Assembly: GCA_018240895.1 (NCBI GenBank)
Contig: JAFEEX010000029.1
Location: 851 to 64,850, forward strand
Source: Pseudomonadota bacterium
GTDB taxonomy: Bacteria; Pseudomonadota; Alphaproteobacteria; Sphingomonadales; Sphingomonadaceae
Direction of reading: 5' to 3'
DNA: 64,000 bases
Position numbers and translations under genes: made by a program. The notes beneath the pieces are model-generated. The model did no database searches. It was given only the letters and a program-made list of their open reading frames with translations, and was not told the DNA's origin. Positions 1-38,018 of this stretch are shown here, in pieces (the first letter of the stretch is position 1; the number at the start of each line of letters is the position of its first letter).

Positions 1-2364
1 GACATCGTCGTCACCGCGCAAAAGCGGACCGAGAAACTGCAGGAAATTCCGGTCGCCGCCGCAGTGCTGACCGCCGACGCAGTGGCGCAGCAACACGTTA
101 CCGACCTGTCGGACATCAACCATGTCGTGCCATCGGTTGAAATCAAGGGCACCTTCAACGGCCGCGTCCCCTATGGCATCCGCGGCATATCGACCAACGC
201 CAACGAAGGTGCGATCGGGCTGACATCGGGCGTTTCTATCCAGGTTGACGGTGTGCCGGTCCCGGCGGACAGCTTTGCCGCCAACACCGTTTCCGACGTG
301 TCCTCGCTGGAAGTGCTGAAAGGTCCGCAGGCGACACTGGGCGGGCGCACGGCCTCTGCCGGGGTGATCAACTTCGTCACCTATTCACCAACCCGGACGA
401 CCCAGGGTGGGTTCAGCGCGACCATCACTGACGATGGCGAGGCGCGCGTTGACGCCCACGTTTCCGGCCCGATCACTGACACGATCGGTTTCAGCATCGC
501 CGGGTTTGACAGCCGCACGCCCTATCCGGTCTATAACCTGACGCTGAACCAGAAATCGCGCGGCGATCAGCGGGGCATTCGCGGCAAGCTGAAGTTCGAA
601 CCGAGCGATGCCTTCGACATCACCCTGATGGGTCACTATGCGCTTGCCACCTCGCGCGGGGAAAACTTCGTGCCGGTCTATTTCACATCCGGCGCGGCGC
701 TGTTCCCCTTCATTCCCAGCGAGTTCAACGGCCCGGGCGGTTCGCCCAGCTTCTTCGGCATTCGCCAGGCGACCGCCTATCCCGGTTTCACCATCCAGTA
801 CGGCAACACCGACTATGCATCGCCGGTCGCCATGGGATCACGCTATGAGGATATCGATGGTTCGGTGGTCGCCAATCTCAAGCTGGGTGATCTGACGCTG
901 ACCTCAACCAGCGCGCTGTTCAAGGAAAACCAGTTCCAGTCGCAGGACATCTTCGAATCGAACGTCTATTTCTTCGATATCCTGACCGGCGGCCACGCCC
1001 CGCACTTCGGCAACATCCAGACCGCCGATGGCGAGGTTCGCCAGTTCACGCAGGAATTCAAGCTGGCGTCCGACCCCAGCAAGCCGGTCAACTTCCTGGT
1101 TGGTGCCTATTATTCCAACATGACGGTGGACCAGACCGGGCTGCGCGTGTGGGTGGGCAACCCGGCTGCGAAGCGCAACGTTTCCAACACCAAGAACTAC
1201 GCGCTTTATGGCCGCGCCACCTTCAAGGCGAGCGACCAGTTCTCGATGACCGCCGGCCTGCGTTACAACCATGACAAGATCGGCTGGAACCTTGACGAAT
1301 ACTTCAATCCGGCGGCGGGTCAATTCTACAACTGCAATCCCAACTTCGACGCCGCGGCGGGCACCGGCGTTCCGACGGGCTGCTCGTTCGCCTTCACTGA
1401 CAGTTCGAACACGGTTGTGGGCGATGTTTCGCTGCAATTCCACCCGAGCCGTGACACCATGGCCTATGTGTCTTACACCCGTGGTTACAAGCCGCGCGCC
1501 TTCAACACGGTGCATGATTTCAGCTCGTTCCAGACCGGGCCGATTTACCTGCCCAGTCAGGCTGCGCTGACCGCTGCCCAGGTCACTGCCGCGCAGAATG
1601 CCTATGCAACGGACCTGCTGTTCCACAAACCTGCCGAAAAGGAAACGATCGACAGCTTTGAAGCGGGCCTCAAAACCTCGCTGCTGGATCGGCACATGAC
1701 GTTCAACCTGGCGGCGTTCTATACCAACTACAAGAATTACCAGGCGCAGATCTTCGACACTTCGCAAGTGATCGGCGTTCTGGTTCTGGCCAATGCCGGG
1801 GCATCGACCCGGGGCGTGGAAGCTGACCTGAACTACGTCAACGCCAATACCCGCCTGTCACTGTCGGCGGCCTATATCGACGCCAAGTTCAAGGACTTCC
1901 CCGCTGCGACCTGCTATCCCACCCAGACCGCGGCGCAGGGCTGCGCTGCCGGGGTCCAGAACCTCAGCGGAAAGCCGATGCCGGCTTCGCCCAAATTCAA
2001 GGTCAACGCCAGCGTCCAGCAGACCGTGCCGCTGTCAAGCTTCAACGTGCTGCTGGGCGGCAACCTGTCATACCGGTCCAGCACCATGCTGCAGGCCAAT
2101 CAGAACCCGCAGACCAACCAGCCGGCCTTTGCCCTGCTTGACCTTAGCCTGGGTTTCCAGACCAAGGATGAGAAGGCATCGCTGACCTTCTTCGTCAACA
2201 ATGTCACCAACCACTTCTATTACACCAACATGGAAGACTTCTTCTCCGGGGCGACCGGGTTTGGTCCTCCGGGACCGACCTTCGTTCCCGCGAACATGGT
2301 GATCGGCCAGCCGGCGCGCGATGCGCATCGCTATTTCGGCGGGCGCGTGGCGTTCAAGTTCTGA
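1..2364 (+). CDS. TonB-dependent receptor (5'-truncated by the window edge)
   Basis: Frame is open from base 1 (DIVVTAQKRTEKLQEIP, TonB-box/plug start); plug motif LEVLKGPQATLGGR; C-terminal beta-strand ending ...GGRVAFKF. Confidence 0.95.
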   Translation, partial: DIVVTAQKRTEKLQEIPVAAAVLTADAVAQQHVTDLSDINHVVPSVEIKGTFNGRVPYGIRGISTNANEGAIGLTSGVSIQVDGVPVPADSFAANTVSDVSSLEVLKGPQATLGGRTASAGVINFVTYSPTRTTQGGFSATITDDGEARVDAHVSGPITDTIGFSIAGFDSRTPYPVYNLTLNQKSRGDQRGIRGKLKFEPSDAFDITLMGHYALATSRGENFVPVYFTSGAALFPFIPSEFNGPGGSPSFFGIRQATAYPGFTIQYGNTDYASPVAMGSRYEDIDGSVVANLKLGDLTLTSTSALFKENQFQSQDIFESNVYFFDILTGGHAPHFGNIQTADGEVRQFTQEFKLASDPSKPVNFLVGAYYSNMTVDQTGLRVWVGNPAAKRNVSNTKNYALYGRATFKASDQFSMTAGLRYNHDKIGWNLDEYFNPAAGQFYNCNPNFDAAAGTGVPTGCSFAFTDSSNTVVGDVSLQFHPSRDTMAYVSYTRGYKPRAFNTVHDFSSFQTGPIYLPSQAALTAAQVTAAQNAYATDLLFHKPAEKETIDSFEAGLKTSLLDRHMTFNLAAFYTNYKNYQAQIFDTSQVIGVLVLANAGASTRGVEADLNYVNANTRLSLSAAYIDAKFKDFPAATCYPTQTAAQGCAAGVQNLSGKPMPASPKFKVNASVQQTVPLSSFNVLLGGNLSYRSSTMLQANQNPQTNQPAFALLDLSLGFQTKDEKASLTFFVNNVTNHFYYTNMEDFFSGATGFGPPGPTFVPANMVIGQPARDAHRYFGGRVAFKF

Positions 2365-2383
2365 ACGGAATGCAAATCAGGCG

Positions 2384-2419
2384 GGGCACCGGATCGCAAG
2401 GTCTGGTGCCCGGTCTTTT
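2384..2419 (+). terminator. Rho-independent terminator or stabilising hairpin after the TBDR
   Basis: gggcaccggatc-gcaa-ggtctggtgccc stem-loop followed by ggtctttt. Confidence 0.6.
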
Positions 2420-2430
2420 CAGGGATAACC

Positions 2431-3054
2431 ATGGAACACACGATCCGGCAGGATGATCTTGGCACTCACATCGACTGGGTGCTGCCCGGTGTGACCGCGC
2501 GGCAGATCGACTGGTTCTGGTCGAACATGGAAAAGGGCTTCATCCTGTGGCACCCCGAACAGCATGAACCGCTGACCTGGCCGGTTCCGCCGGCTCATGG
2601 CAATCCGCTTGGCGCGGTGCACAATGCTCCGCAGACCTGGGACGATGGCCGCCGGCAAGACCTTTACATCCGGTTCGAGCGGCTGGAGGACGTTCCCGCC
2701 GCGCTGCGCGAACGGATCCGTTATGCGCACGCCATCATCGTTGCCGGACTGGGCTTTGACCTGAGCGCGATCGAGACTGACATGCCGCTTGGCTACCGCC
2801 TGCACCAGTGGCAGGACAGCGCCGGCGGCGTGGTCGGCTCCTCAACCGCGATCGGCCTTGCCAAGCCGGAAACGCCCGCTGACGGCCTTGTCTGGGCCGC
2901 TCACGCCGCGGGTGAAATCGGCAATTGGGCGCACTTCCTTCCCGATCTCTACCGCCTTTACAGCGTCGTTACCGATCCGCGCCGCAATCCCTTTGCCGAT
3001 CTTTCGCTGAACGGCAGCGGGGCCGCCGCGCATTACCGCCATATCCCAGCCTGA
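2431..3054 (+). CDS. PhlG/DAPG-hydrolase (phloretin-hydrolase)-like protein
   Basis: PGVT-x3-IDWFW...F-x-LWHPEQH N-terminal pattern resembles the DAPG hydrolase family; late H-x3-E motif (HAAGE) followed by FLPDLY. Confidence 0.6.
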   Translation: MEHTIRQDDLGTHIDWVLPGVTARQIDWFWSNMEKGFILWHPEQHEPLTWPVPPAHGNPLGAVHNAPQTWDDGRRQDLYIRFERLEDVPAALRERIRYAHAIIVAGLGFDLSAIETDMPLGYRLHQWQDSAGGVVGSSTAIGLAKPETPADGLVWAAHAAGEIGNWAHFLPDLYRLYSVVTDPRRNPFADLSLNGSGAAAHYRHIPA

Positions 3055-3073: not shown

Positions 3074-3994
3074 ATGCCTGTCATCATCACCGGAGCCGGC
3101 GGCTTTGTTGGCCGCGAACTGATCCGCCAGTTGCTTGGTGCCGGCACGCAGGTTGTCGGGATCGACAGCGCCGCCGCGGCGATACCCGCGGGGGCCAGAG
3201 CGGTGGCCGGAAATCTCGCCGATCCCGCGGTTCGCAGCGAGGCGCTGGCGAACGGATGCAGCGCGGTGATCCATCTTGCCACGGTTCCCGGCGGCGCGGC
3301 TGAAGCGGACCCTGATGCCAGCCGGCGGATCAACGTCGATGCGATGTACGATCTGTTGCTGGAAGCCGGAGCCGCCGGAAATCGCCCCCGTTTCGTCTAT
3401 GCCAGTTCAATCGCGGTGTTCGGCGATCCGCTTCCCGCCAGCGTCGATGACGACACCCCCCTGTCCCCCAAAATGATCTATGGCGGGCACAAGGCGATGA
3501 TGGAAAATGCGGTGGCGCTGTTTTCCAACCGCGGCCTGATCGACGGGGTCACTGTGCGCCTGCCCGGAATCCTGGCCCGGCCCAAGGGGCCATCGGGAAT
3601 GAAATCCGCCTTCATGAGCGATCTGTTCCACGCCCTGAAGGCGGGTGATGCCTTCGTCTGTCCGGTATCGGCTGACGGGATGATCTGGGCCGAATCGGTC
3701 AATCGCTGCGCCGCCAATTTTGTCCACGCGCTGACCCTGGACACCGCATTGCTCCCGCCGACCCGCGCGGTGACCCTGCCGGCGCTGCGCATCCGCATGG
3801 GCGATCTGGCCGGGGAGATCGCACGGCAATGCGGGGTTTCTCCGGATCTGGTCAGCTACGCGCCCGACGCCGCGCTGGAGGCGGCCTTCGCCGCGCAGCC
3901 GCCGCTCGCCACGCCCGCCGCCGATCGGGCGGGCTTTGCCCACGATGGCGATCTTGCTACACTGGTCGCCAGCGCCCTTGCCACGCTGAGCTAG
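3074..3994 (+). CDS. NAD-dependent epimerase/dehydratase (extended SDR; FdeJ/DenD-like)
   Basis: TGAGGFVG Rossmann motif, SSIAVFG, YGGHK catalytic YxxxK. Confidence 0.85.
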   Translation: MPVIITGAGGFVGRELIRQLLGAGTQVVGIDSAAAAIPAGARAVAGNLADPAVRSEALANGCSAVIHLATVPGGAAEADPDASRRINVDAMYDLLLEAGAAGNRPRFVYASSIAVFGDPLPASVDDDTPLSPKMIYGGHKAMMENAVALFSNRGLIDGVTVRLPGILARPKGPSGMKSAFMSDLFHALKAGDAFVCPVSADGMIWAESVNRCAANFVHALTLDTALLPPTRAVTLPALRIRMGDLAGEIARQCGVSPDLVSYAPDAALEAAFAAQPPLATPAADRAGFAHDGDLATLVASALATLS

Positions 3995-4005: not shown

Positions 4006-5013
4006 ATGGCGATGCGGTTTGGACGGCTTGATCTTAACCTGCTGGTGGCGCTTGACGCGCTGCTGACCGAACGCAGCGTCAGTCTTGCAGCTGACCGGCT
4101 GTGCCTGTCCCAATCGGCCACATCGAGCGCGCTGGGCCGTCTGCGCGACTATTTCGGCGATGATCTGCTGGTGGTGAAAGGCCGGCACATGATCCTGACC
4201 GCGCGGGCCGAGGAATTGATCGAACCCGTCCGCGCCGTGCTTGAGCAAATCCGGTCAACCATTGCCATCGCCCCGCCTTTCGATCCGGCCACGGCGGACC
4301 GCCAGATCCGCATCATGGCATCCGATTACACAACGCAGGTGCTGCTGGCCGAAGCGCTGGCTCAACTGGCGATCGATGCGCCCAACCTGCGTTTCGAAAT
4401 CCAGCCGATGAGCACCAACCCGGTCGAGGCGATCGAGCGCGGCTTCGTTGATTTCCTGATCACCATCGATTTTGCCGTTTCGGCAGATCATCCCAGCCAG
4501 GTCTTGTTTGAGGATGATTACGTGGTGGTCGGTGCCGCAGACAACCCGGCGATGCAGGGCGAGATGACCCGCGAACGCTATTTTTCGCTGGGCCACGTCG
4601 CCGCCCGCTTTGGCCGGGCGCAAATGCCCGCGTTTGAGGAATGGTTCACCCGCCGGCAGAAACAGCAGCGGCGGATCGAGGTGGTTGCCCCTACTTTCCT
4701 GTCGCTGCCCGGCCTTGTCCTGGGCACCAGCCGGATTGTCACCATGCATCGCCGCCTGGCCCAGCAAGTGGTCGATACCTTCCCCCTGGTGATGCGCGAA
4801 CTGCCCTTTCAGATCCCGCCGATCCGCGAGGTGGTGCAATGGCACCTGACCAACAGCAATGACCGCGCGCTGCGCTGGGTGGTCGAACGGCTGGAGGCGG
4901 TGGCCCAGCACCGCGTACCGCGTCACGACAATGTTATCCCGCTTGATCCGGCCGACGAACTGCGACGCGATGAGATTGCGGCCCGGTGGCAGAACGATAC
5001 CGGCTCTAGATAA
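4006..5013 (+). CDS. LysR-family regulator, NodD/FdeR-like
   Basis: N-terminus MRFGRLDLNLLVALDALLTERSVS...LGRLRDYFGDDLL closely resembles NodD; ASDY, LGHV..RFG, RRIEVV, TMHRRLA are NodD-type motifs; GGAG RBS upstream. Confidence 0.9.
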   Translation: MAMRFGRLDLNLLVALDALLTERSVSLAADRLCLSQSATSSALGRLRDYFGDDLLVVKGRHMILTARAEELIEPVRAVLEQIRSTIAIAPPFDPATADRQIRIMASDYTTQVLLAEALAQLAIDAPNLRFEIQPMSTNPVEAIERGFVDFLITIDFAVSADHPSQVLFEDDYVVVGAADNPAMQGEMTRERYFSLGHVAARFGRAQMPAFEEWFTRRQKQQRRIEVVAPTFLSLPGLVLGTSRIVTMHRRLAQQVVDTFPLVMRELPFQIPPIREVVQWHLTNSNDRALRWVVERLEAVAQHRVPRHDNVIPLDPADELRRDEIAARWQNDTGSR

Positions 5014-5416
5014 GGTCAAAGCGGCGGCGTGCCGCTTCGATCATGGTATCGCGGGATTTGACCCACTCGATCGTTCGCCGCGCCTGATCCTGCAGGTCCG
5101 CGCCCATGGGGGTGAGGCGGTAAGATACCTTGGGCGGCACGTCAGCCGTTACGATCCGCGTAACGAAACCGTCGCGCTCCAGCGTCCGCAGTTTCAGCGT
5201 CAGTACCCGCTGCGAAATCGCCTGCTCGGCAGACAGGCTGGCCAGCATCCGCTTCAGTTCGGCATGACGCCATTCGCCGGTTGCCAGCACCAGCAGGATC
5301 AGCGTGGTCCACCGGTCACCCAGCAGGGCCATGACCGAGCGGACCGGGGCATCGCGGCCAGTCCCGTGTTCGGCCATTTCCGCGGCCAGCGCTTCGATTG
5401 TCTGGTGCATCGCCAT
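5006..5416 (-). CDS. HxlR-family transcriptional regulator
   Basis: LGDRWTTLIL, ISQRVLTLKLRTLERDGFV, VPPKVSYRLT. Confidence 0.9.
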   Translation of the reverse strand: MAMHQTIEALAAEMAEHGTGRDAPVRSVMALLGDRWTTLILLVLATGEWRHAELKRMLASLSAEQAISQRVLTLKLRTLERDGFVTRIVTADVPPKVSYRLTPMGADLQDQARRTIEWVKSRDTMIEAARRRFDLI

Positions 5417-5507: not shown

Positions 5508-6317
5508 ATGACTGTCGATGCGATCCGGATGGATGGCAAGGTGGCGATTGTTACTGGCGGGGCGGGCGGAATCGGTTTTGCCACCGGGCAATTGATGGCC
5601 GCGCGCGGTGCCCATGTGGTTCTGGCCGACATCGCGGTTGAACGCGCGAAGGAACTGGCCGCAACCCTGCCAGACGCGATCGGCCTGCCGCTTGATCTTG
5701 GCGACGAACATTCGATCGAGGCCCTGGTCGAGGCCGCCGTGACGCACTTCGGGCGGCTTGATGTGCTGCACAACAATGCCGCGCTGCTCGGCCCGGAAAT
5801 CGCCCGGAACGACGGCGATATCGAACAGATGGCGACGGACCTGTGGGACCGCACATACCGCGTCAACGTGCGCGGCACGATGATCGCCTGCCGCGCCGCC
5901 CTGCCGCATCTGCGCGCAAGCCGCGGCAACATCGTCAACACCGTCAGCAATCTGGCGCTGCAAGGCCATATGATCCAGGCGGCCTATTCCTCGTCAAAGG
6001 CAGCGATCATCCAGATGACCCGCGCCATCGCCGCCAGCCACGGACCGACCGGTGTGCGCTGCAACGCGGTTGCCCCCGGCATGACCATGACCCCGGCCCT
6101 GCGCGAGGCCTTTCCCCCCACCCTGCGCAAGGCAGTGGAGGATGAAACCCTGCGCGATCAACTTGGCGATCCGGAGGATATTGCCGAGGCGGTTGCCTTC
6201 CTTGCCAGCGACGCTGCGCGCAACATCACCGGGCAGGTGCTGGTCGCCGATGGCGGCTGCGCCAGCCACGTGCCGGGGATTGCGCAGTTCCGGGCGTTTT
6301 TCTCGGATAACCAGTGA
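5508..6317 (+). CDS. SDR-family oxidoreductase
   Basis: TGGAGGIG, NNA, YSSSK, RCNAVAPG. Confidence 0.9.
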   Translation: MTVDAIRMDGKVAIVTGGAGGIGFATGQLMAARGAHVVLADIAVERAKELAATLPDAIGLPLDLGDEHSIEALVEAAVTHFGRLDVLHNNAALLGPEIARNDGDIEQMATDLWDRTYRVNVRGTMIACRAALPHLRASRGNIVNTVSNLALQGHMIQAAYSSSKAAIIQMTRAIAASHGPTGVRCNAVAPGMTMTPALREAFPPTLRKAVEDETLRDQLGDPEDIAEAVAFLASDAARNITGQVLVADGGCASHVPGIAQFRAFFSDNQ

Positions 6318-8019: not shown

Positions 8020-8246
8020 TGGCGAAGGCAAAGGTGCCGGTGGCGACGATTCTTGACGCCAATGACAAGGAATTGATGGCAATCCGCAAGATCGCGGGTG
8101 AGGATGGCAACCTGGTGATCCGCGGCAAGATCTTCGGGGCCATGCCAATGGTCGCCAAACTGACCCCAGCGGAGGCACGCGCCGCATTGAAATTGCTCGA
8201 TTTCCGGACCTTCGTGTTCCTGTTGACCATGCTGTTTCGACGCTAA
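8019..8246 (+). CDS. Small hypothetical protein (75 aa) translationally coupled to the oxidoreductase
   Basis: TGATG stop/start overlap at 8017-8021; GGAGG upstream; hydrophobic C-terminus. Confidence 0.75.
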   Translation: MAKAKVPVATILDANDKELMAIRKIAGEDGNLVIRGKIFGAMPMVAKLTPAEARAALKLLDFRTFVFLLTMLFRR

Positions 8247-15268: not shown

Positions 15269-15284
15269 CGCGCAGGGCAGTGTG

Positions 15285-22786: not shown

Positions 22787-22795
22787 AGGATTTGA

Positions 22796-24517: not shown

Positions 24518-24544
24518 TTGTTGTTTGGACAGGGAGAATTGTTG

Positions 24545-25489: not shown

Positions 25490-26004
25490 GCGCCCTGTCC
25501 GACAGCGGGCTGCCGCTGGTCCAGCGGGTCGTCACCGGGCATGATGAAAACGGCCGAGCCACGTTCAAGAGCGAGGATTTCTCGCCAACCCGGATGATCT
25601 CTTCGGGCGATGCCAGCTTCCTGACGATCTGGACCACCGAAGCCGTCCCCGCTGATGTCAACGACGAGCGTGACGGGCGCGACCTGCCAACCGGGCTGAC
25701 GCTGGAGCGCGGATCGGTGATCCGCATCACCGATATGCTGCCGGGCAAGGAAAGCCCGATGCACCGCACCAACAGCATCGATTACGGCATCGTCCTGCAA
25801 GGCGAGATCGAGCTGGAGCTTGAGGACGGGCGCAAGAAGACGATCAGGCAAGGCGGGATCATTGTCCAGCGTGGCACCAATCATCTGTGGCGCAACACCA
25901 CTGACAAGGTGACGCGGATCGCCTTCATCCTGATCGAGGCCCCGGCCTATCGCCACAACGGCGTGCCGCTTGATGAGATGAAGCCTGAGGACGTTCACGA
26001 CTGA
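25486..26004 (+). CDS. Cupin domain protein (FdeH-like)
   Basis: RVVTGHD, MHRTNSIDYG, VQRGTNHLW. Confidence 0.88.
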   Translation: MSALSDSGLPLVQRVVTGHDENGRATFKSEDFSPTRMISSGDASFLTIWTTEAVPADVNDERDGRDLPTGLTLERGSVIRITDMLPGKESPMHRTNSIDYGIVLQGEIELELEDGRKKTIRQGGIIVQRGTNHLWRNTTDKVTRIAFILIEAPAYRHNGVPLDEMKPEDVHD

Positions 26005-29645: not shown

Positions 29646-30610
<965 letters not shown>

Positions 30611-30623
30611 GCCGCGCGCAAGA

Positions 30624-31679: not shown

Positions 31680-31703
31680 TGCCTCCCCAGCAGGGGCAGG
31701 GCG

Positions 31704-32378
31704 CTACACATAACGCAGCCCTTCCTTCTCCAGTCGCTCACGCATCTTGTACATATCAAGGCCAAGCACCCCGTCCGCCAGCTTGGCGCGCTTTTCGCCC
31801 TCGTTGGCTTCGCGCGCCTGCGCGGCGGCAAGCACGGCTGCGGCCCTTTCACGCGGGACCACGCAGACCCCGTCATCATCAGCCACGATCACATCGCCGG
31901 GGTTAACCAATGCCCCGGCGCAGACCACCGGCACATTGACGCTGCCCAGCGTGTTCTTGACCGTCCCTTGCGCATAGATCGCCTTGGACCAGACCGGGAA
32001 CTGCATTTCGGTAAGGTCACGCACGTCGCGCACTCCGGCGTCGATAATCAGCCCCCGGCAGCCGCGCGCCTGAGCGCTGGTGGCCAGCAGATCGCCAAAA
32101 TAGCCATCCTCGCACGGGCTGGTCGGGGCCAGCAGCAGGACATCGCCCGCCCGCAGCTGCTCGATCGCGACATGGACCATCCAGTTGTCGCCCGGCGGCG
32201 CGCTGATCGTCACCGCTGATCCCGCGATCCGCGCTCCGGGATAGATCGGCCGCATGTGGCTGGCGAGCAGGCCGGTACGGCCCTGAGCCTCGTGCACGGT
32301 GGCGACGCCGCAATGGGCCAGGCCATCAACCACTTCTGGCGCGGCGCGTTCGATATGCTGCACGACAATTCCGCCCAT
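31704..32378 (-). CDS. ligK: 4-carboxy-4-hydroxy-2-oxoadipate aldolase
   Basis: [29 protein letters not shown]. Confidence 0.93.
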
Positions 32379-32483: not shown

Positions 32484-33647
32484 ATGACGATCTGGCATAT
32501 GAACCTTCGGCACCTGGCCGCTGCGGCGCAGATTGTGCGGCTGGGGACGATCAATGCCGCCGCCCAGGCGGTCAACCTTACCCAGCCAGCCATAACCCAG
32601 GCCTTAGCCCGCCTTGAAGGTCAGCTTGGCCTGCCGCTGTTTGAACGCAGGTTTGATGGCATGGCCCCGACCCCGGCGGCGGACATTCTGGTCCCCCGGA
32701 TCGATGCGGCGCTGGCGCTGATTGCCAGCCCCCACGTTACCATGGCGCGGCTGCGTGCGCTGCTGGCGCTGGCGGATGCGGGCAGCTATGCCGGGGCAAG
32801 CGTACAGACCGGGCTATCACTTCCCTCGCTCCACCGCGCGGTCAGCGACCTATCACTGTCAATGCGGCGCAATCTGGTGCAGCGGCGCGGCAAGGTTGTG
32901 GTGCTGACCGACACCGGTGATCAGCTTGCCCGCGCTTTTCGCCTGGCCCGGGTTGAGCTGGAAACCGGCCTTTCCGAAATTGCGGCCCTGCAAGGCCGCG
33001 AAACGCGCCAGATCGCGATCGGGGCCATGCCGCTGTCACGCGCCCGCATCCTGCCCGCGGCGGTCACGCGGTTCTTGCGGCGGCACCCCAGGGTGCGCAT
33101 TTCCATCGCCGAGGGATCGCGCGCCGAACTGGTTGAACCGCTGCGCAACGGCGCGCTGGACCTGATGGTGGGTGCCCTGCGCGATCCCCTGCTTGAAGCT
33201 GACCTGACGCAGCAACCGCTGTTTGCGGATTTGCCGGCAGTGATCGGACGGCGCGGTCATCCGCTGAGCAGCATTGCGCCCGGCACCGCGCCCGCTCCCG
33301 CTGATCTTGCCCGCTATCCATGGACCGTTCCGCCGCGCGGCGCGCCGCTGCGCGACAGTTTCGAACGGTACTTTGCCGCCGCCGGAATAGCCCCGCCGCC
33401 GGTGCCGATCGAATCCGGATCGGTAATGATGATCCGCCAGATCCTGATCGACAGCGATTTCCTGACCATGCTCTCGCCCGAACAGGTCGCCGTTGAACTG
33501 GAGGCCGGCTGGCTTGAACAGATCGCCCAGCTTCCCCGGGGCCTTGCCCGGACCATCGGCGTCACCACCCGCGCATCGTGGCGGTGGACGGTGGTGCAGC
33601 GCGAATTCATGGCTGATCTTGAGGCTGTCTCTGCCGAAATGGGGTGA
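32484..33647 (+). CDS. ligR: LysR regulator with two HTH domains (LigR/GalR type)
   Basis: NLRHL...TQPAITQAL, second HTH LSLPSLHRAV; located between ligK and ligJ. Confidence 0.85.
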   Translation: MTIWHMNLRHLAAAAQIVRLGTINAAAQAVNLTQPAITQALARLEGQLGLPLFERRFDGMAPTPAADILVPRIDAALALIASPHVTMARLRALLALADAGSYAGASVQTGLSLPSLHRAVSDLSLSMRRNLVQRRGKVVVLTDTGDQLARAFRLARVELETGLSEIAALQGRETRQIAIGAMPLSRARILPAAVTRFLRRHPRVRISIAEGSRAELVEPLRNGALDLMVGALRDPLLEADLTQQPLFADLPAVIGRRGHPLSSIAPGTAPAPADLARYPWTVPPRGAPLRDSFERYFAAAGIAPPPVPIESGSVMMIRQILIDSDFLTMLSPEQVAVELEAGWLEQIAQLPRGLARTIGVTTRASWRWTVVQREFMADLEAVSAEMG

Positions 33648-33732: not shown

Positions 33733-34569
33733 ATGCAGATCGATGTTGCCCTGATCGGTTTTGGTGAAGCCGGATCAACCTTTGCCCGCGCGGGCGGGTG
33801 GGCCGGGCGCGCCCGCGCCTTTGACATTCTGCCGGCGCGATCGGAGGTGATGGCTGCATCGCGGATAGGCGTGGCCACGACCGCGGCGGAGGCGCTGGCT
33901 CAGGCACCACTCGCCCTGTCGCTGGTCACTGCTGATCAGGCGCTGGTGGCGGCCGAACGCGCGGCTCCGCTGCTTGCGCCCGGCGCGCTGTGGTGTGATC
34001 TGAATTCCGTGGCCCCGCAAACCAAGCGCGCGGCGGCGGCCGTGATCGAGGCCGGCGGCGGGCGCTATGTTGACGGTGCGGTGCTGGCCCCGGTCAACCC
34101 CGCGCGAATGACCGTGCCACTACTGCTGGCGGGCCGCCATGCCGAAGAAGCCAAGGCCAGGCTGGAAGCGCTGGGCTTCGCCAATGTCCGGGTGGTCGGG
34201 GCCGAGGTTGGCAAGGCCAGCGCTATCAAGATGATCCGTTCGGTGATGGTCAAGGGGATCGAGGCGCTGAGCGATGAAATGATGGCCGCCGCGCGCGCCG
34301 CCGGGGTTGAGGACGAGGTGCTGGCCTCGCTCGACGCCAGCGAGAAGGCGCAGCCCTGGGCACAGCGTGCGGCCTATAACCTTGAACGCATGACCACCCA
34401 CGGAGCGCGGCGCGCGGCGGAGATGGAAGAAAGCGCCAGAACGCTGCTGTCACTGGGCGTCGCCCCGGTGATGACGCGGGGCACGGTGCTTCGGCAGAGG
34501 CAAGCCGCCCAGGTTCCCCAGACTTCCCAAATTCCGTTCGGCACGAACGGGGCAGAGCAAGCAGGTTGA
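33733..34569 (+). CDS. NAD(P)-dependent oxidoreductase (6PGDH-like, DUF1932)
   Basis: IGFGEAG, DLNSVAP, ASAIKMIRSVMVKG, HGARRAAEM. Confidence 0.85.
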   Translation: MQIDVALIGFGEAGSTFARAGGWAGRARAFDILPARSEVMAASRIGVATTAAEALAQAPLALSLVTADQALVAAERAAPLLAPGALWCDLNSVAPQTKRAAAAVIEAGGGRYVDGAVLAPVNPARMTVPLLLAGRHAEEAKARLEALGFANVRVVGAEVGKASAIKMIRSVMVKGIEALSDEMMAAARAAGVEDEVLASLDASEKAQPWAQRAAYNLERMTTHGARRAAEMEESARTLLSLGVAPVMTRGTVLRQRQAAQVPQTSQIPFGTNGAEQAG

Positions 34570-34570
34570 C

Positions 34571-35587
34571 ATGATCATAGACTGCCACGGCCACTACACC
34601 GTCCTGCCCAAGGCTCACGACGAATGGCGCGAGGCGCAGAAGGCTGCGTTCAAGGCCGGGCAACCGGCCCCTCCCTATCCCGCGATTTCCGATGACGAAA
34701 TCCGCGAGACGATTGAGGCCAACCAGCTGCGCCTGATCAAGCAGCGCGGCGCGGACATGACGATTTTCTCGCCCCGCGCCAGCGCCATGGCCCCGCACGT
34801 CGGCGATCAATCGGTCGCGGTGGAATGGGCGCGGGTCTGCAACGATCTTATCGCCCGCGTGGTCGGCCTGTTCCCCGATACCTTCGCCGGCGTCTGCATG
34901 CTGCCCCAATCGCCAGAGGCGGACATGACCAGCTCGATCGCGGAGTTGCAACGCTGCGTGGCCATGGGCTTCATCGGCTGCAATCTCAATCCCGATCCGG
35001 GCGGCGGCCATTTCCGGCATCCGCCGCTGACCGATGAATTCTGGTTCCCGTTCTACGAAGCGATGTGCGAACTGGACGTGCCGGCGATGATCCACGTGTC
35101 CGGGTCGTGCAATCCGGCGATGCACGCCACGGGCGCCTATTACATCGCGGCGGATACCATTGCCTTCATGCAACTGCTGGAAGGTGATCTGTTCGCGCGG
35201 TTTCCCACCCTGCGTTTCATCATCCCGCATGGCGGCGGCGCGGTGCCCTATCACTGGGGGCGCTATCGCGGGTTGGCTGATATGCTCAAGAAGCCCGATC
35301 TCCAGACTCATCTGATGACCAACGTGTTCTTCGATACCTGCGTCTATCACCAACCGGGGATCGACCTGCTGGCCGACGTGATCGATAACAAGAACATCCT
35401 GTTTGGCAGCGAAATGGTTGGCGCGGTGCGCGGGATCGATCCGACCACCGGGTTCCATTTTGACGACACCAAACGCTATGTCGATGCGCTGCCCATCACC
35501 CCTGCCGAGCGCAGTGCCATCTTTGAAGGCAATGCCCGCCGGGTTTTCCCTCGCCTTGATGCCCAACTGAAGGAGCGCGGCCTGTGA
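34571..35587 (+). CDS. ligJ: 4-oxalomesaconate hydratase
   Basis: IIDCHGHY, FSPRASAMAPH, HGGGAVPYHWGR, FGSEMVGAV. Confidence 0.93.
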   Translation: MIIDCHGHYTVLPKAHDEWREAQKAAFKAGQPAPPYPAISDDEIRETIEANQLRLIKQRGADMTIFSPRASAMAPHVGDQSVAVEWARVCNDLIARVVGLFPDTFAGVCMLPQSPEADMTSSIAELQRCVAMGFIGCNLNPDPGGGHFRHPPLTDEFWFPFYEAMCELDVPAMIHVSGSCNPAMHATGAYYIAADTIAFMQLLEGDLFARFPTLRFIIPHGGGAVPYHWGRYRGLADMLKKPDLQTHLMTNVFFDTCVYHQPGIDLLADVIDNKNILFGSEMVGAVRGIDPTTGFHFDDTKRYVDALPITPAERSAIFEGNARRVFPRLDAQLKERGL

Positions 35588-35988
35588 CGCGGGACATCCA
35601 CGCCTACCTCGCCGAATTTGACGATATCCCCGGCACCCGGGTTTATACTGCGGCGCGGGCCAGGCGGGGCTATCACCTCAACCAGTTCGCGATGAGCCTG
35701 ATGAAGCCCGCCAACCGTGATCGCTGGAAAGCCGGTGAGCGCGCTTATCTGGATGAATGGCCAATCAGTGAGGAGCAGAAGCAGGCGGTGCTGGACCGGG
35801 ACTACAACCGGATGCTGGACCTGGGCGGCAATATCTATTTCCTGTCGAAAATATTCTCGACCGATGGAATCCCCTTTGCCGAGGCCTGCTCGACCATGAC
35901 CGACATGACCTTTCCCGAATACCGTCAGATGATGCTGGACGGGGGGCGCTCGCCCGAAGGCAACCGTAGCATCAAGGGGGGAAACTGA
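35584..35988 (+). CDS. ligA: Protocatechuate 4,5-dioxygenase alpha subunit
   Basis: DIPGTRVY, GYHLNQF, GGNIYFLSK, MLDGGRSP. Confidence 0.93.
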   Translation: MTRDIHAYLAEFDDIPGTRVYTAARARRGYHLNQFAMSLMKPANRDRWKAGERAYLDEWPISEEQKQAVLDRDYNRMLDLGGNIYFLSKIFSTDGIPFAEACSTMTDMTFPEYRQMMLDGGRSPEGNRSIKGGN

Positions 35989-36009
35989 TGCGTCCCAACC
36001 ATCGCCACG

Positions 36010-36075
36010 CCGTTCGTGTCGAGCGAAGTCGAGACACGGTGCGCGGGACGTCTCGACTTCGCTCGACGCGAACGG
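36010..36075. repeat. REP-like palindrome (GAGCGAAGTCGA family)
   Basis: ccgttcgtgtcgagcgaagtcgagac ... gtctcgacttcgctcgacgcgaacgg. Confidence 0.85.
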
Positions 36076-36084
36076 ATCTGGTGA

Positions 36085-36942
<858 letters not shown>

Positions 36943-36947
36943 CAAGA

Positions 36948-37063
36948 CCCCTTCCCCTTCAGGGGAAAGGGTGGGGAGAGGGGGACTTCCTGATTTCAAC
37001 GTGAAACATGGGCCGGATCGAGATTCCCCCTCTCCCCGGCCCTCCCCCTGAAGGGGAGCGGGA
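36948..37063. repeat. Intergenic CCCCTCTCCC-family palindromic repeat
   Basis: ccccttcagggg...gagagggg / cccctctcccc...ccctgaagggg. Confidence 0.7.
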
Positions 37064-37070
37064 GTAGGAA

Positions 37071-38018
37071 ATGCGCATTGCCCTTGCCGGAGCCGGAGCC
37101 TTTGGCGAAAAGCACCTTGACGGCTTGAAGAACATCGATGGCGTGGAGATTACCTCGATCATCAGCCGCACCGGGGAACAGGCCGCTGCCGTGGCCGCGA
37201 AGTATGGCGCGAAGCACAGCTCGACCGAACTGGCCGACGCCCTTGCCCGCGACGATGTCGATGCGGTGATCCTGTGTACCCCCACCCAGATGCACGCGGC
37301 CCAGGCGATTGCCTGCATGGACGCGGGAAAGCACGTTCAGGTGGAAATCCCGCTGGCCGATAGCTGGGCCGATGCCCAGGCGGTGCTGAACAAGAGCCGC
37401 GAAACCGGGCTGACCTGCATGGTCGGCCACACCCGCCGCTTCAATCCGTCGCACCAATACGTTCACAACCGCATCATTGCCGGCGAATTCGCCGTCCAGC
37501 AGATGGACGTCCAAACCTATTTCTTCCGCCGCAAGAACATGAATGCCAAGGGCGAGCCGCGGTCATGGACCGATCATCTGCTGTGGCACCACGCGGCGCA
37601 TACGGTGGACCTGTTCGCTTATCAGGCCGGGCGGATCGTTCAGGCCAACGCGATCGAGGGACCGCACCATCCCGAGCTTGGCATCGCCATGGATATGTCG
37701 ATCCAGCTCAAAAGCGAAAGCGGGGCGATCTGCACCCTGTCCTTGTCATTCAACAACGACGGGCCGCTTGGCACCTTCTTCCGCTATATCGGTGATACCG
37801 GCACCTATATCGCCCGCTATGACGATCTGGTGAACGGCAAGGAAGAACCGATCGACGTCAGCAAGGTTGATGTCAGCATGAACGGTATCGAGCTGCAGGA
37901 CCGCGAATTCATCTCTGCGATCCGCGAAGGGCGTGAACCGAATTCCTCGGTGGCGCAGGTACTCGACTGCTACCGGGTGCTGGGCGATCTTGAATTGCAG
38001 CTGGGAGGCACGCGGTAA
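37071..38018 (+). CDS. ligC: 4-carboxy-2-hydroxymuconate-6-semialdehyde dehydrogenase
   Basis: GAGAFG, VEIP, GHTRRFNP, WTDHLLWHH. Confidence 0.93.
   Translation: MRIALAGAGAFGEKHLDGLKNIDGVEITSIISRTGEQAAAVAAKYGAKHSSTELADALARDDVDAVILCTPTQMHAAQAIACMDAGKHVQVEIPLADSWADAQAVLNKSRETGLTCMVGHTRRFNPSHQYVHNRIIAGEFAVQQMDVQTYFFRRKNMNAKGEPRSWTDHLLWHHAAHTVDLFAYQAGRIVQANAIEGPHHPELGIAMDMSIQLKSESGAICTLSLSFNNDGPLGTFFRYIGDTGTYIARYDDLVNGKEEPIDVSKVDVSMNGIELQDREFISAIREGREPNSSVAQVLDCYRVLGDLELQLGGTR

What the first reader, a model, noticed from the sequence alone, without database searches (positions are those of the whole stretch)
1..38018. Dispersed NodD-like-regulated flavonoid/plant-polyphenol catabolic system wired to the protocatechuate 4,5-cleavage pathway
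Seen: within 38 kb lie a TBDR, a PhlG-like hydrolase, an NAD-dependent epimerase, a NodD-like LysR, a two-domain VOC dioxygenase, a cyclase, an alpha/beta C-C hydrolase, an FAH hydrolase, a cupin, a Rieske O-demethylase-like oxygenase, an MFS and the complete lig cluster. Established: the Herbaspirillum seropedicae fde naringenin-degradation cluster has this family make-up (NodD-like FdeR, VOC dioxygenase FdeC, cyclase FdeG, cupin FdeH, FAH FdeI, epimerase FdeJ), and flavonoid B-ring products are commonly funnelled to protocatechuate. Inference: this is an fde-like upper pathway split over at least four transcription units. It carries components that I do not associate with fde (HisD paralog, phytoene-desaturase-like flavoprotein plus small partner, O-methyltransferase, HbpS-like protein) and sits next to its lower pathway. 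No FdeE-type FAD monooxygenase or small Rieske ferredoxin is in the window, so the entry step lies elsewhere or differs.
Basis: partly seen in the sequence, partly recalled or inferred. Interest (0 to 1): 0.82.

Follow-up and report, generated by a model that had tools for sequence, protein, structure and literature searches.

The report
Expanded flavonoid-degradation (fde-like) gene cluster
A Novosphingobium-like bacterium carries a rearranged, enlarged relative of the Herbaspirillum fde flavonoid-degradation operon next to its protocatechuate 4,5-cleavage genes: a new variant of a known pathway type, with its substrate untested.

Summary

I fetched the H. seropedicae fdeR-fdeABCDEFGHIJ locus. 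Eight of its 11 proteins have their best match in this whole genome on this contig: FdeG 68%, FdeB 55%, FdeI 52%, FdeR 43%, FdeJ 41%, FdeE 40%, FdeC 33%, FdeH 30%.

The "missing" FdeE-type monooxygenase lies just off the window, divergent from the TonB receptor and cut by the contig end.

These are the HisD paralog, the CrtI-like flavoprotein with its small partner, the small VOC and the O-methyltransferase. Here a core Ppx-RlmE block splits that cluster.

The ring-cleavage dioxygenase is a separate subfamily, 30-38% identical to FdeC in all 87 loci sampled. This is therefore a variant, not a copy.

A nod-box-like operator recurs at two or three promoters.

Adjacency to lig is not conserved. 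However, all 5 dioxygenase-positive genomes in a 200-genome family sample carry LigB, against 26% of the others.

Substrate, regulation and pathway order are inferred. The scan earlier noted an fde-like operon in a Comamonadaceae genome.

The parts
1..2364 (+). TonB-dependent outer-membrane receptor. It takes the uptake role that the FdeA channel has in Herbaspirillum. The true start is 104 bases before the window, at C26:746.
   Evidence: Pfam Plug and TonB_dep_Rec_b-barrel domains. Start codon and signal peptide. A TBDR sits between the FAD monooxygenase and the epimerase in L002, L081, G005 and G006.
2431..3054 (+). 207-aa compact protein, possibly carrying a PhlG/DAPG-hydrolase domain. It is specific to this lineage.
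   Evidence: No Pfam or NCBIfam hit. Atlas search: all 30 hits are DAPG_hydrolase clusters, top score 0.98. PDB match to PhlG 3HWP is only E 0.1. No homolog in the 87 related loci.
3074..3994 (+). FdeJ-like NAD-dependent epimerase/reductase.
   Evidence: Pfam Epimerase. 41% identical to FdeJ over 316 of 320 residues, and the best hit in the genome. 72-77% identical to the cluster copies in L002, G005 and G006.
4006..5013 (+). FdeR/NodD-like LysR regulator.
   Evidence: 43% identical to FdeR over 290 residues with no gaps. It lies directly upstream of the VOC in L001 and L002.
5006..5410 (-). HxlR-family regulator, divergent from the SDR-flavoprotein unit.
   Evidence: Pfam HxlR. Same position in G005.
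5508..6317 (+). Short-chain dehydrogenase, first gene of the SDR-flavoprotein-small protein unit.
   Evidence: Pfam adh_short. 69-77% identical copies sit between the LysR and the VOC in G005, G006 and L081.
6430..8019 (+). CrtI/amine-oxidase-family FAD oxidoreductase. Its role is unknown; a dehydrogenation step is my guess.
   Evidence: Pfam Amino_oxidase and NCBIfam crtI_fam, both below the naming cut-offs. Found in 10 of 87 VOC loci at a median 57% identity, and 84% identical in G005 and G006.
8019..8246 (+). 75-aa partner of the flavoprotein. Its start overlaps the flavoprotein stop codon.
   Evidence: Conserved next to the flavoprotein in 7 loci. It directly abuts the VOC in G006 and L081.
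14114..14142 (+). Degenerate nod-box-like operator upstream of the VOC (GTT-N7-ATC-N6-AATGCATTT).
   Evidence: Aligned with VOC-upstream regions of L001, L002, G005 and G006, and with the H. seropedicae fdeR|fdeA region.
14195..15268 (+). Two-domain type I extradiol dioxygenase of a subfamily distinct from FdeC ('VOC-II').
   Evidence: 33% identical to FdeC over 293 residues, with His/His/Glu and HH motifs conserved. The fold model matches LapB, BphC and HsaC. 80-89% identical across sphingomonad genera. The tree places it in an 18-row clade.
15282..16241 (+). BD-FAE/hormone-sensitive-lipase-type esterase, probably co-transcribed with the VOC. It is an accessory gene particular to this genome.
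   Evidence: Pfam BD-FAE. Only one related locus, L002, has a homolog nearby.
17340..17909 (-). CCoAOMT-like O-methyltransferase, last gene of the 8-gene minus-strand operon.
   Evidence: Pfam Methyltransf_3. A 71% identical copy sits in the G005 cluster.
17981..18436 (-). DoxX membrane protein.
   Evidence: Pfam DoxX.
18437..18841 (-). Single-domain VOC/glyoxalase protein.
   Evidence: Pfam Glyoxalase. Found in 19 of 87 loci. 76-85% identical in L002, L081, G005 and G006.
18834..19865 (-). VanA/DdmC-type Rieske aryl O-demethylase-like oxygenase.
   Evidence: Pfam Rieske and VanA_C. PDB DdmC at 1e-64 over the full length. 56% identical to the L002 cluster copy.
19888..21045 (-). FdeB-like alpha/beta C-C (retro-Claisen) hydrolase.
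   Evidence: 55% identical to FdeB over 384 of 386 residues. Nearest PDB entries are 2JBW, Ayg1-like and AntI.
21050..21955 (-). FdeG-like cyclase-family hydrolase.
   Evidence: 68% identical to FdeG over 262 of 271 residues. Pfam Cyclase.
22031..22801 (-). Short-chain dehydrogenase paired with the HisD paralog.
   Evidence: Pfam. 78-83% identical next to the HisD paralog in L081, G005 and G006.
22950..24281 (-). HisD-family paralog of the HpsN branch, presumed to oxidise an alcohol or aldehyde to an acid.
   Evidence: PDB HpsN 8V35 at 4e-115, better than true HisD at 2e-78. A second HisD-family copy, 39.5% identical, lies on contig C12. Found in 19 of 87 loci at a median 67% identity.
24357..24380 (+). 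Nod-box-like operator (GAT-N8-ATC-N5-AATGC) in the divergent HisD|FAH promoter region.
   Evidence: Conserved in G006 and similar to GATGCC..CC..ATC in the fdeR|fdeA region.
24518..25489 (+). FdeI-like FAH-family hydrolase.
   Evidence: 52% identical to FdeI over 327 residues. Pfam FAA_hydro_N_2 and FAA_hydrolase.
25486..26004 (+). FdeH-like cupin.
   Evidence: 30% identical to FdeH over 180 of 196 residues, and the only hit in the genome. 81% identical in G006.
26022..26660 (+). HbpS/GlcG-like protein with a likely signal peptide.
   Evidence: Pfam HbpS-like. Homologs in clusters L077, L079 and L008.
26657..27415 (+). Short-chain dehydrogenase ending the FAH operon.
   Evidence: Pfam. 78% identical next to the cupin and FAH in G006.
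27593..28294 (-). Short-chain dehydrogenase downstream of the MFS gene.
   Evidence: Pfam. 71-78% identical inside the clusters of L081 and G006.
28291..29517 (-). MFS transporter, not FdeF-like. It lies directly downstream of ligI on the same strand.
   Evidence: Pfam MFS_1. 78% identical next to the FAD monooxygenase in L081. FdeF has no hit in the genome.
29646..32378 (-). ligK-ligU-ligI: CHA aldolase, OMA tautomerase and PDC hydrolase.
   Evidence: NCBIfam scores above cut-off for LigK and LigU. LigI matches 4D8L at 1e-167.
32484..33647 (+). ligR-like LysR regulator.
   Evidence: Pfam HTH_1 and LysR_substrate. PcaQ-like by NCBIfam.
33733..38018 (+). A DUF1932 dehydrogenase-like gene followed by ligJ, ligA, ligB and ligC.
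   Evidence: LigJ matches 6DXQ at 8e-212. LigA and LigB score above cut-off. LigC matches PmdC 9AZO at 8e-160.

Best explanation
This is one accessory catabolic system of the fde/ifc kind, which degrades flavonoids by A-ring meta-cleavage. It is carried by a Novosphingobium-like sphingomonad and arranged as about seven transcription units.

Proposed working; every step is inferred from homology:
1. A TonB-dependent receptor and an MFS transporter import a plant polyphenol that has a resorcinol- or phloroglucinol-type ring fused to a pyranone. Flavonoids are the model substrate.
2. An FdeE-like FAD monooxygenase, located just before the window, adds a hydroxyl group to make a catechol.
3. The two-domain extradiol dioxygenase (14195-15268) opens that ring.
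4. FdeB-like C-C hydrolase, FdeG-like cyclase-family hydrolase, FdeI-like FAH, FdeH-like cupin and FdeJ-like reductase trim the opened ring.
5. Extra modules are an HpsN-like dehydrogenase with an SDR, a CrtI-like flavoprotein with a small partner, a DdmC-like O-demethylase, a small VOC with DoxX, and an O-methyltransferase. They probably add a dehydrogenative branch and tailor methoxylated or reduced substrates.
6. The surviving B-ring acid, of the protocatechuate, vanillate or gallate type, enters the neighbouring LigAB 4,5-cleavage pathway.
7. An FdeR/NodD-like LysR probably activates at least the monooxygenase|receptor, dioxygenase and HisD|FAH promoters through nod-box-like sites.

The hydroxylase/dioxygenase pair belongs to a subfamily different from FdeE/FdeC. 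The exact substrate or hydroxylation position therefore probably differs from naringenin C-8 chemistry.
For: Shown:
- The H. seropedicae fde locus was fetched as L090.
- Eight of 11 Fde proteins have their best G000-wide tblastn hit on this contig: FdeG 68%, FdeB 55%, FdeI 52%, FdeR 43%, FdeJ 41%, FdeE 40%, FdeC 33%, FdeH 30% (pairwise alignments).
- An FdeE-like gene lies at C26:1-606, divergent from the TBDR.
- In Aquisediminimonas (L001), Sphingobium Z007 (L002), an alphaproteobacterial MAG (L081) and same-genus genomes G005 and G006, the same genes are contiguous. That includes the HisD paralog, SDRs, the CrtI-like flavoprotein with its small partner, the small VOC and the O-methyltransferase.
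- Across 87 loci around VOC homologs, co-located genes were counted as follows: FAD monooxygenase 66, LysR 50, FdeB-like hydrolase 36, FAH 33, epimerase 23, cyclase 22, HisD 19.
- The VOC model has an extradiol dioxygenase fold, and the metal ligands are conserved.
- The FdeB-like hydrolase is nearest to retro-Claisen C-C hydrolases. The Rieske protein is nearest to the DdmC O-demethylase.
- The lig set is complete.
- All 5 VOC-positive genomes, in 5 genera, of a 200-genome family sample have LigB, against 50 of 195 others. One-sided Fisher P is 0.0014; kin are not independent.
- GAT-N8-ATC-N5-AATSS boxes lie at the monooxygenase|TBDR and HisD|FAH promoters. A degenerate copy lies before the VOC. 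They are conserved in relatives and resemble the fdeR|fdeA region.

From the literature:
- FdeE performs C-8 hydroxylation and FdeC performs A-ring cleavage (bioRxiv 10.1101/2023.09.18.558247, citing Marin 2013 and 2016; PMC11303751).
- The ifc cluster uses the same enzyme families (PMC11069340).
Against: - The VOC is only 33% identical to FdeC. All 87 sampled relatives are 30-38% identical to FdeC, so the key ring-cleavage enzyme is a different subfamily.
- FdeA, FdeD and FdeF have no counterpart in the genome.
- Related clusters occur in marine lineages where flavonoids are scarce: SAR86, Halieaceae, Thalassovita and Hoeflea.
- The HpsN-like dehydrogenase and the CrtI-like flavoprotein have no role in the published fde or ifc schemes.
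- No PobA was found in this 89%-complete assembly, so a 4'-hydroxy B-ring such as naringenin's would not obviously reach protocatechuate.
- lig is on other contigs, or far away, in G005, G006, G153, G161 and G188.
- The operator pattern was defined after seeing the sites.
- True reciprocal best hits against the whole H. seropedicae genome could not be run.
Confidence: 0.62

Rival explanations
1. The architecture is the same but the substrate class differs. On this reading the cluster degrades a non-flavonoid resorcinol- or phloroglucinol-type polyphenol. Candidates are coumarins, dihydrochalcones and acylphloroglucinols, stilbenoids, alkylresorcinols, chromones, phlorotannin fragments, or lignin-linked units that carry a primary alcohol. 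Fde-like downstream enzymes would be reused on a similar ring-fission product.
For: - The VOC and the monooxygenase are only 33% and 40% identical to FdeC and FdeE, and the VOC falls in a separate clade.
- Related clusters occur in marine SAR86, Halieaceae and Roseobacteraceae genomes.
- A possible PhlG-domain protein is present.
- The HpsN-like dehydrogenase implies a primary-alcohol or aldehyde intermediate that flavonoid aglycones do not provide.
- No PobA was found.
Against: - FdeG (68%), FdeB (55%) and FdeI (52%) are close enough to suggest that the ring-fission intermediates are the same type as in naringenin catabolism.
- The regulator is FdeR-like at 43%, with nod-box-like sites.
- Only flavonoid substrates have been demonstrated for any member of this enzyme set (PMC11069340, PMC11303751).
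Confidence: 0.25
2. There is no single system. On this reading several independent aromatic-catabolic operons and the lig cluster simply share a catabolic island, and the resemblance to fde reflects common enzyme families.
For: - Housekeeping genes (Ppx, RlmE, LigT) and unrelated regulators interrupt the stretch.
- Adjacency to lig is not conserved in relatives.
- A motif taken from the VOC promoter is not found at other promoters.
Against: - Eight of 11 Fde best hits fall on one contig.
- The same genes are contiguous in L001, L002, L081, G005 and G006 at 47-89% identity.
- The monooxygenase|TBDR and HisD|FAH promoters share an operator-like box that is conserved in relatives.
- Genome-level co-occurrence with LigB is 5 of 5.
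Confidence: 0.08

Closest known systems
fdeR-fdeABCDEFGHIJ naringenin-degradation operon of Herbaspirillum seropedicae SmR1 (Marin et al. 2013, 2016, as cited in bioRxiv 10.1101/2023.09.18.558247 and PMC11303751); locus L090 here
   Same: - It uses the same enzyme families: FdeR-type LysR, FAD monooxygenase, two-domain VOC dioxygenase, FrsA-like C-C hydrolase, cyclase-family hydrolase, cupin, FAH with the N_2 domain, and NAD epimerase.
- Eight of 11 proteins have their best genome-wide hit here, at 30-68% identity.
- The regulator's promoter region carries a similar box.
   Different: - It is not one operon but about seven units, split by a core Ppx-RlmE block.
- The VOC (33%) and the monooxygenase (40%) belong to other subfamilies.
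- A TonB-dependent receptor stands in place of the FdeA channel.
- There is no FdeD ferredoxin and no FdeF-type MFS.
- It has extra genes: an HpsN-like dehydrogenase with an SDR, a CrtI-like flavoprotein with a small partner, a DdmC-like Rieske oxygenase, a small VOC, DoxX, an O-methyltransferase, an esterase and a possible PhlG-domain protein.
- It sits next to the lig (4,5-cleavage) pathway rather than feeding a pca (3,4-cleavage) pathway.
ifc isoflavone catabolism cluster of Variovorax sp. V35 (PMC11069340)
   Same: The logic is the same: hydroxylase, then VOC dioxygenase, then cupins, with an alpha/beta hydrolase resembling 2,6-dihydroxypseudooxynicotine hydrolase. The hydrolase here has the same nearest solved structure (2JBW).
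   Different: IfcB is reported as 66% identical to FdeC, so it belongs to the FdeC subfamily and the VOC here does not. I could not obtain the Ifc sequences, so I made no direct comparison.
Protocatechuate 4,5-cleavage (lig/pmd) clusters of Sphingobium sp. SYK-6 and Comamonas
   Same: The full set is present: LigAB, LigC/PmdC, LigI, LigU, LigJ, LigK and a LysR regulator. Matches to the solved enzymes are very strong.
   Different: Here an MFS transporter gene and an SDR gene follow ligI on the same strand. In relatives these two genes belong to the fde-like cluster. A DUF1932 gene also lies between ligR and ligJ.
NodD/nod box regulation in rhizobia
   Same: The regulator is a LysR type with a NodD/FdeR-like N-terminus. 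The operators are of the form GAT(G)-N7/8-ATC-N-AAACAAT-like.
   Different: The sites are shorter and degenerate. Neither binding nor flavonoid response has been tested. The targets are catabolic genes, not nodulation genes.
HpsN sulfopropanediol 3-dehydrogenase (HisD family; PDB 8V35)
   Same: It is the closest solved relative of the HisD paralog (E 4e-115).
   Different: The genomic context is aromatic catabolism with no sulfonate genes. The substrate is unknown.

Membership tests
fde-type flavonoid A-ring meta-cleavage cluster | FdeR-type LysR regulator next to the catabolic genes | tested here: met
   43% identity to FdeR over 290 residues with no gaps. It is the best hit in the genome. 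It is adjacent to the VOC in L001 and L002.
fde-type flavonoid A-ring meta-cleavage cluster | FdeE-type FAD-dependent monooxygenase | tested here: met
   C26:1-606 on the minus strand is 40% identical to FdeE over 186 residues and 68% identical to the L001 cluster copy. The gene is truncated by the contig end and lies outside the window.
fde-type flavonoid A-ring meta-cleavage cluster | FdeC-clade VOC extradiol dioxygenase | tested here: not met
   It has the same fold and family (E 1e-35, 33% identity; fold). It belongs to a separate subfamily: FdeC is 30-38% identical to all 87 sampled members.
fde-type flavonoid A-ring meta-cleavage cluster | Downstream set of FdeB hydrolase, FdeG cyclase, FdeH cupin, FdeI FAH and FdeJ epimerase | tested here: met
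   Identities are 55%, 68%, 30%, 52% and 41%. Each is the best hit in the genome and each lies in this window.
fde-type flavonoid A-ring meta-cleavage cluster | FdeA outer-membrane channel, FdeD small Rieske ferredoxin and FdeF MFS transporter | tested here: not met
   No tblastn hit at 1e-5 anywhere in G000. A TBDR and a different MFS transporter are present instead.
fde-type flavonoid A-ring meta-cleavage cluster | Single operon divergent from the regulator | tested here: not met
   The genes form about seven units over 30 kb, with a 5.9-kb unrelated block between the small partner gene and the VOC.
fde-type flavonoid A-ring meta-cleavage cluster | Induction by a flavonoid and its degradation | not testable with these tools
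   This needs growth tests, LC-MS and expression experiments.
Protocatechuate 4,5-cleavage (lig) pathway | LigA and LigB dioxygenase subunits | tested here: met
   NCBIfam scores: 229.6 bits against a cut-off of 173, and 539 bits against a cut-off of 317.
Protocatechuate 4,5-cleavage (lig) pathway | LigC, LigI, LigU, LigJ and LigK | tested here: met
   PmdC 9AZO at 8e-160, LigI 4D8L at 1e-167 and LigJ 6DXQ at 8e-212. The OMA tautomerase and the CHA aldolase score above the NCBIfam cut-offs.
PhlG/DAPG-hydrolase family (for ORF 2431-3054) | A significant match to the PF18089 profile or to solved PhlG | tested here: inconclusive
   There is no Pfam hit at 0.001. PDB PhlG matches at E 0.1 over 36 residues. 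The Atlas feature search gives 30 of 30 DAPG_hydrolase clusters with a top score of 0.98.

The most novel reading that the evidence does not exclude
The hydroxylase/dioxygenase pair here defines a second, uncharacterised lineage of fde-like clusters. I found it in at least 273 species genomes, including Acidobacteriota, Actinomycetota and marine SAR86 and Roseobacteraceae. In its 'HisD type' it would run a dehydrogenative branch through the HpsN-like dehydrogenase, an SDR and a two-component CrtI-like flavoprotein. That branch would act on a polyphenol class or ring position not covered by the known fde and ifc pathways. Candidates are methoxylated or lignin-linked flavones such as tricin, or non-flavonoid chromones and coumarins. 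The products would feed obligately into protocatechuate/gallate 4,5-cleavage.
Probability: 0.25. Interest if true: 0.7.

Novelty: new variant of a known kind. Interest (0 to 1): 0.5.

Why it matters
Flavonoids and related polyphenols are plant signals, antimicrobials and a large carbon pool. Only two aerobic bacterial A-ring cleavage clusters have been characterised in the literature I could search: fde in Herbaspirillum and ifc in Variovorax.

This locus shows three things:
- Sphingomonads, the classic lignin-aromatic degraders, carry an enlarged relative of those clusters.
- It has a different hydroxylase/dioxygenase pair.
- It has extra redox and demethylation modules, and its presence goes with LigAB across genomes.

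The dioxygenase subfamily has almost no solved relative. It is spread patchily over several phyla, including marine groups.

If the predictions hold, this would give:
- a second entry route into flavonoid or polyphenol catabolism;
- new regulators that could serve as biosensors;
- candidate enzymes for funnelling plant polyphenols into the PDC-producing lig pathway used in lignin valorisation.

Tried and rejected
1. The search for related loci with a 13-sequence alignment failed for lack of a conserved stretch. A 4-sequence alignment worked, but Herbaspirillum and Variovorax were not among the 80 loci kept.
2. A homolog search with a Polaromonas VOC did not bring up any named Herbaspirillum or Variovorax protein. 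I reached the fde locus another way. I used a 60-residue fragment of FdeR, read from the plasmid file in the supplement of PMC10799723, as the query.
3. Searching the H. seropedicae genome with window proteins, for true reciprocal best hits, was not possible because that record is not held.
4. The motif ATGCRTTTYT from the VOC promoter is not enriched and is absent from the other promoters: 7 matches against 10.9 expected.
5. The terminator scan between ligI and the MFS gene found only a weak 6-bp hairpin. Co-transcription of ligKUI with MFS-SDR is therefore undecided.
6. Literature searches for a sphingomonad flavonoid or tricin catabolic cluster, or for a HisD-type fde variant, found nothing relevant. 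PMC8386446 does not mention flavonoids.
7. The idea that the highly conserved 357-aa VOC is a housekeeping enzyme such as HPPD is rejected. It gives no NCBIfam equivalog hit. It is present in only 5 of 200 family genomes.
8. ORFs first picked by GC3 at 8243-9211 (minus strand) and 17283-18062 (plus strand) gave no family hit. The other strand or frame encodes PadR and the O-methyltransferase.

Full report
**What is in the window**

I called genes by third-position GC content and scanned them against Pfam, NCBIfam and the PDB. The window is G000:C26:851-64850, from a 3.17-Mb assembly that is 89% complete. The closest named homologs are from Novosphingobium, at 88-89% identity.

In window coordinates, from left to right:
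- TonB-dependent receptor, 1-2364. Its real ATG and signal peptide lie 104 bases before the window.
- A 207-aa ORF, 2431-3054.
- Epimerase, 3074-3994.
- LysR, 4006-5013.
- HxlR, 5006-5410, minus strand.
- SDR, 5508-6317.
- CrtI-like flavoprotein, 6430-8019.
- A 75-aa partner, 8019-8246.
- PadR, Ppx/GppA, RlmE, LigT, MarR, a Cupin_7 protein and an unknown ORF, together spanning 8.3-14.0 kb.
- VOC, 14195-15268, followed by a BD-FAE esterase, a GNAT and a small unknown ORF.
- An 8-gene minus-strand operon, 24281 down to 17340: HisD paralog, SDR, cyclase, alpha/beta hydrolase, Rieske oxygenase, small VOC, DoxX and O-methyltransferase.
- Divergent from it, FAH, cupin, HbpS-like and SDR, 24518-27415.
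- On the minus strand, ligK-ligU-ligI, MFS and SDR, 32378 down to 27593.
- ligR, a DUF1932 gene and ligJABC, up to 38018.

The lig set is complete and matches the solved enzymes closely.

**The entry enzyme**

In relatives a PF01494 monooxygenase sits divergently next to the receptor gene. Searching the window's own genome with that protein found it at C26:1-606 on the minus strand. It is 68% identical over residues 1-202 and is cut by the contig end. It is also 40% identical to FdeE. The entry enzyme therefore lies immediately upstream of the window.

**Direct comparison with fde**

I could not reach Herbaspirillum through homolog searches that started from the VOC. I therefore took a 60-residue stretch of FdeR from the plasmid GenBank file in the supplement of PMC10799723. 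With it I found the full-length H. seropedicae protein and fetched its locus, L090.

That locus reads:
- fdeR
- fdeA, a Phenol_MetA_deg channel
- fdeB, a FrsA-like hydrolase
- fdeC, a VOC
- fdeD, a small Rieske protein
- fdeE, an FAD monooxygenase
- fdeF, an MFS transporter
- fdeG, a cyclase
- fdeH, a cupin
- fdeI, an FAH
- fdeJ, an epimerase

This agrees with FdeC = Hsero_1005 and FdeE = Hsero_1007, as given in bioRxiv 10.1101/2023.09.18.558247.

A tblastn of the 11 proteins against the whole G000 assembly put the best hit of eight of them on this contig:

| Fde protein | Identity | Position of best hit |
|---|---|---|
| FdeG | 68% | 21056-21841 |
| FdeB | 55% | 19894-21039 |
| FdeI | 52% | 24545-25480 |
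| FdeR | 43% | 4012-4881 |
| FdeJ | 41% | 3074-3979 |
| FdeE | 40% | C26:16-570 |
| FdeC | 33% | 14195-15067 |
| FdeH | 30% | 25510-25938 |

FdeA, FdeD and FdeF have no hit anywhere in the assembly. I could not search the H. seropedicae genome in the reverse direction. Orthology therefore rests on these one-way best hits plus synteny.

**One system or neighbours by chance**

Relatives settle this.
- In Aquisediminimonas profunda (L001) and Sphingobium sp. Z007 (L002), the LysR lies directly upstream of the VOC. The monooxygenase, receptor, epimerase, FAH, HisD, cupin, FrsA-like hydrolase, Rieske protein and small VOC lie within 10 kb, at 47-83% identity to the window proteins.
- In same-genus genome G005 one 26-kb contig carries, in the window's order: monooxygenase | receptor, epimerase, LysR | HxlR | SDR, CrtI-like, small partner | (a second VOC-monooxygenase pair) | VOC | (a ligAB-like pair) | O-methyltransferase, small VOC, hydrolase, SDR.
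- In G006 and in MAG L081 the small partner gene abuts the VOC.

The exception is the HbpS-like gene, which has a homolog in only 2 of the 87 loci.

The 5.9-kb block between the small partner gene and the VOC is the anomaly. Ppx-RlmE is a core pair in cluster-free genomes of the same genus, where its flanks are entirely different. Accessory DNA therefore lies on both sides of a core pair in this genome.

The cluster is accessory and patchy:
- The VOC was found in 3 of 15 same-genus genomes.
- It was found in 5 of 200 genomes drawn evenly from the family, in 5 of 105 genera.
- It is nevertheless 75-89% identical across those genera, which suggests horizontal spread.

**A distinct dioxygenase lineage**

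A whole-database HMMER search found only 68 clusters (at 50% identity) with E below 1e-30. A scan of species genomes found 273 relatives, and I kept 80 loci. Counts of window-gene homologs co-located in the 87 loci are.

Two recurrent layouts appear:
- A "cyclase type" with VOC, monooxygenase, hydrolase, cyclase, FAH, epimerase and cupin. Azospirillum lipoferum L029 is an example, where FdeB, FdeG and FdeI homologs reach 74%, 78% and 62% identity.
- A "HisD type" with HisD, SDR, small VOC and the CrtI-like pair. It occurs in Pseudomonas, Rhizobium, Steroidobacteraceae, SAR86 and Roseobacteraceae.

The window combines both. Its hydrolase is the FdeB type that travels with the cyclase. It is 65% identical to G006's cyclase-linked copy and 49% identical to the copy in G006's HisD operon.

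In a maximum-likelihood tree the window VOC falls in a well-supported 18-row clade, together with the HisD-type loci. That tree was a quick search, not the careful one.

FdeC is only 30-38% identical to every one of these VOCs. The hydroxylase/dioxygenase pair has therefore been exchanged relative to fde, while the downstream enzymes stayed close. The VOC keeps the His/His/Glu ligands and the HH motif. Its model (pLDDT 84, pTM 0.84) matches two-domain extradiol dioxygenases at E about 1e-16. By sequence it has almost no solved relative: 3B59 at E 5.5e-4.

**Other enzymes**

- The FdeB-like hydrolase is nearest to 2,6-dihydroxypseudooxynicotine hydrolase, Ayg1-like proteins and AntI, all retro-Claisen C-C hydrolases. 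PMC11069340 reports the same resemblance for the ifc hydrolase.
- The Rieske protein matches the dicamba O-demethylase DdmC over its full length.
- The HisD paralog is closer to HpsN sulfopropanediol dehydrogenase (4e-115) than to true HisD (2e-78). A second HisD-family copy lies on contig C12.
- The 207-aa ORF is supported as a PhlG-domain protein only by the Atlas feature search. It is absent from all related loci.

**Regulation**

The monooxygenase|receptor intergenic region holds a perfect palindrome, TGGATGGCCATCCA, followed by CACAATCGG. The same layout, TGGAT-N8-ATC(C/G)A..CAATCGG, is kept in G005 and G006.

The HisD|FAH intergenic region holds GATGCCAGCCTATCGACCGAATGCC, which is nearly identical in G006. 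The VOC upstream region holds a degenerate version ending in AAACAATGCATTT, and the VOC promoters of relatives carry CGATAGC-N-ATC..ATGCGTTT.

The H. seropedicae fdeR|fdeA region contains GATGCCGTCCATATC...AATCAAAACAATCCATTT. The sites are aligned.

The composite pattern occurs 5 times on this contig against about 1 expected. I defined the pattern after seeing two of those sites, and the other three are inside genes. I read this as moderate support for a shared FdeR/NodD-like operator, not as proof.

**Link to protocatechuate 4,5-cleavage**

Physically, the MFS and SDR genes are cluster members in L081 and G006. Here they follow ligI on the same strand, after a 128-bp gap that holds only a weak hairpin.

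Adjacency is not conserved:
- lig genes lie on other contigs in G005, G006 and G161.
- LigB is 230 kb from the VOC in G153 and more than 0.5 Mb away in G188.
- Only a few of the 87 loci have lig-type genes nearby: L052, L020, L017 and L079.

At genome level the link holds. All five VOC-positive genomes of the even family sample carry a LigB ortholog, against 50 of 195 others (Fisher one-sided P = 0.0014). G005 and G006 carry LigB too, while three cluster-free genomes of the same genus do not. Kin are not independent and the numbers are small. Still, a metabolic dependence on the lig pathway is the simplest reading.

No PobA was found in this incomplete assembly. That argues for B-rings that yield protocatechuate-, vanillate- or gallate-type acids directly, or through the Rieske demethylase, rather than 4-hydroxybenzoate.

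**Verdict**

- It is wrong on one detail, since the entry enzyme lies just off the window.
- It is unproven on substrate.
- The key dioxygenase and hydroxylase belong to a separate lineage from FdeC and FdeE, and several modules have no place in the published pathways. I therefore class this as a new variant of a known kind.
I did not test it.

Noticed in passing
window 32256-33647 (+): The ligR open frame shows two LysR-type HTH_1 matches, at residues 84-142 and from about residue 163. A full PcaQ-like regulator aligns from residue 163. Either the true start is the ATG at 32742, with an in-frame remnant of a duplicated HTH upstream, or LigR here has a tandem HTH.
   Followed up: partly
window 24433-24517 and 27458-27573: There are long GC-rich inverted repeats of a REP/MITE-like kind. 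One lies in the HisD|FAH intergenic region. The other lies between the convergent SDR genes, where it may act as a bidirectional terminator.
   Followed up: no
window 8259-8272: A perfect 14-bp palindrome, CAAGATATATCTTG, lies just upstream of the PadR gene (8333-8938). It is a likely PadR operator.
   Followed up: no
G000 contig C7:66.7-69.2 kb (locus L004): The same genome holds a second, distant pair: an FAD monooxygenase-like gene (26% identical) next to a VOC-like gene (34% identical to FdeC over 177 residues).
   Followed up: no
L092/L093 (G005:C234) 17219-22093: Inside the same-genus cluster there is a second VOC-monooxygenase pair (38% identical to the first) and a ligAB-like class III dioxygenase pair (45% and 33% identical to LigB and LigA). 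This suggests the cluster swaps ring-cleavage modules.
   Followed up: partly
L007 (Rhizorhabdus dicambivorans CP023449) 7925-15121: A member of the same VOC family sits with a FrsA-like hydrolase, a GST, an FAD monooxygenase and a P450. IS21 transposase genes lie on one side and type IV secretion/conjugation genes on the other. It looks like a mobile version of the module.
   Followed up: no
window 33733-34569 (+): A DUF1932/NAD_binding_2 dehydrogenase-like gene lies between ligR and ligJ. It has no NCBIfam name.
   Followed up: no
window 41148-45145 (+): A family III CoA-transferase, a flavin reductase and a second MFS transporter form a unit downstream of the lig cluster and a phosphoglucomutase gene. 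It is possibly another aromatic-acid module.
   Followed up: no
whole genome G000: No 4-hydroxybenzoate 3-monooxygenase (PobA, TIGR02360) was found in the assembly, which is 89% complete.
   Followed up: partly
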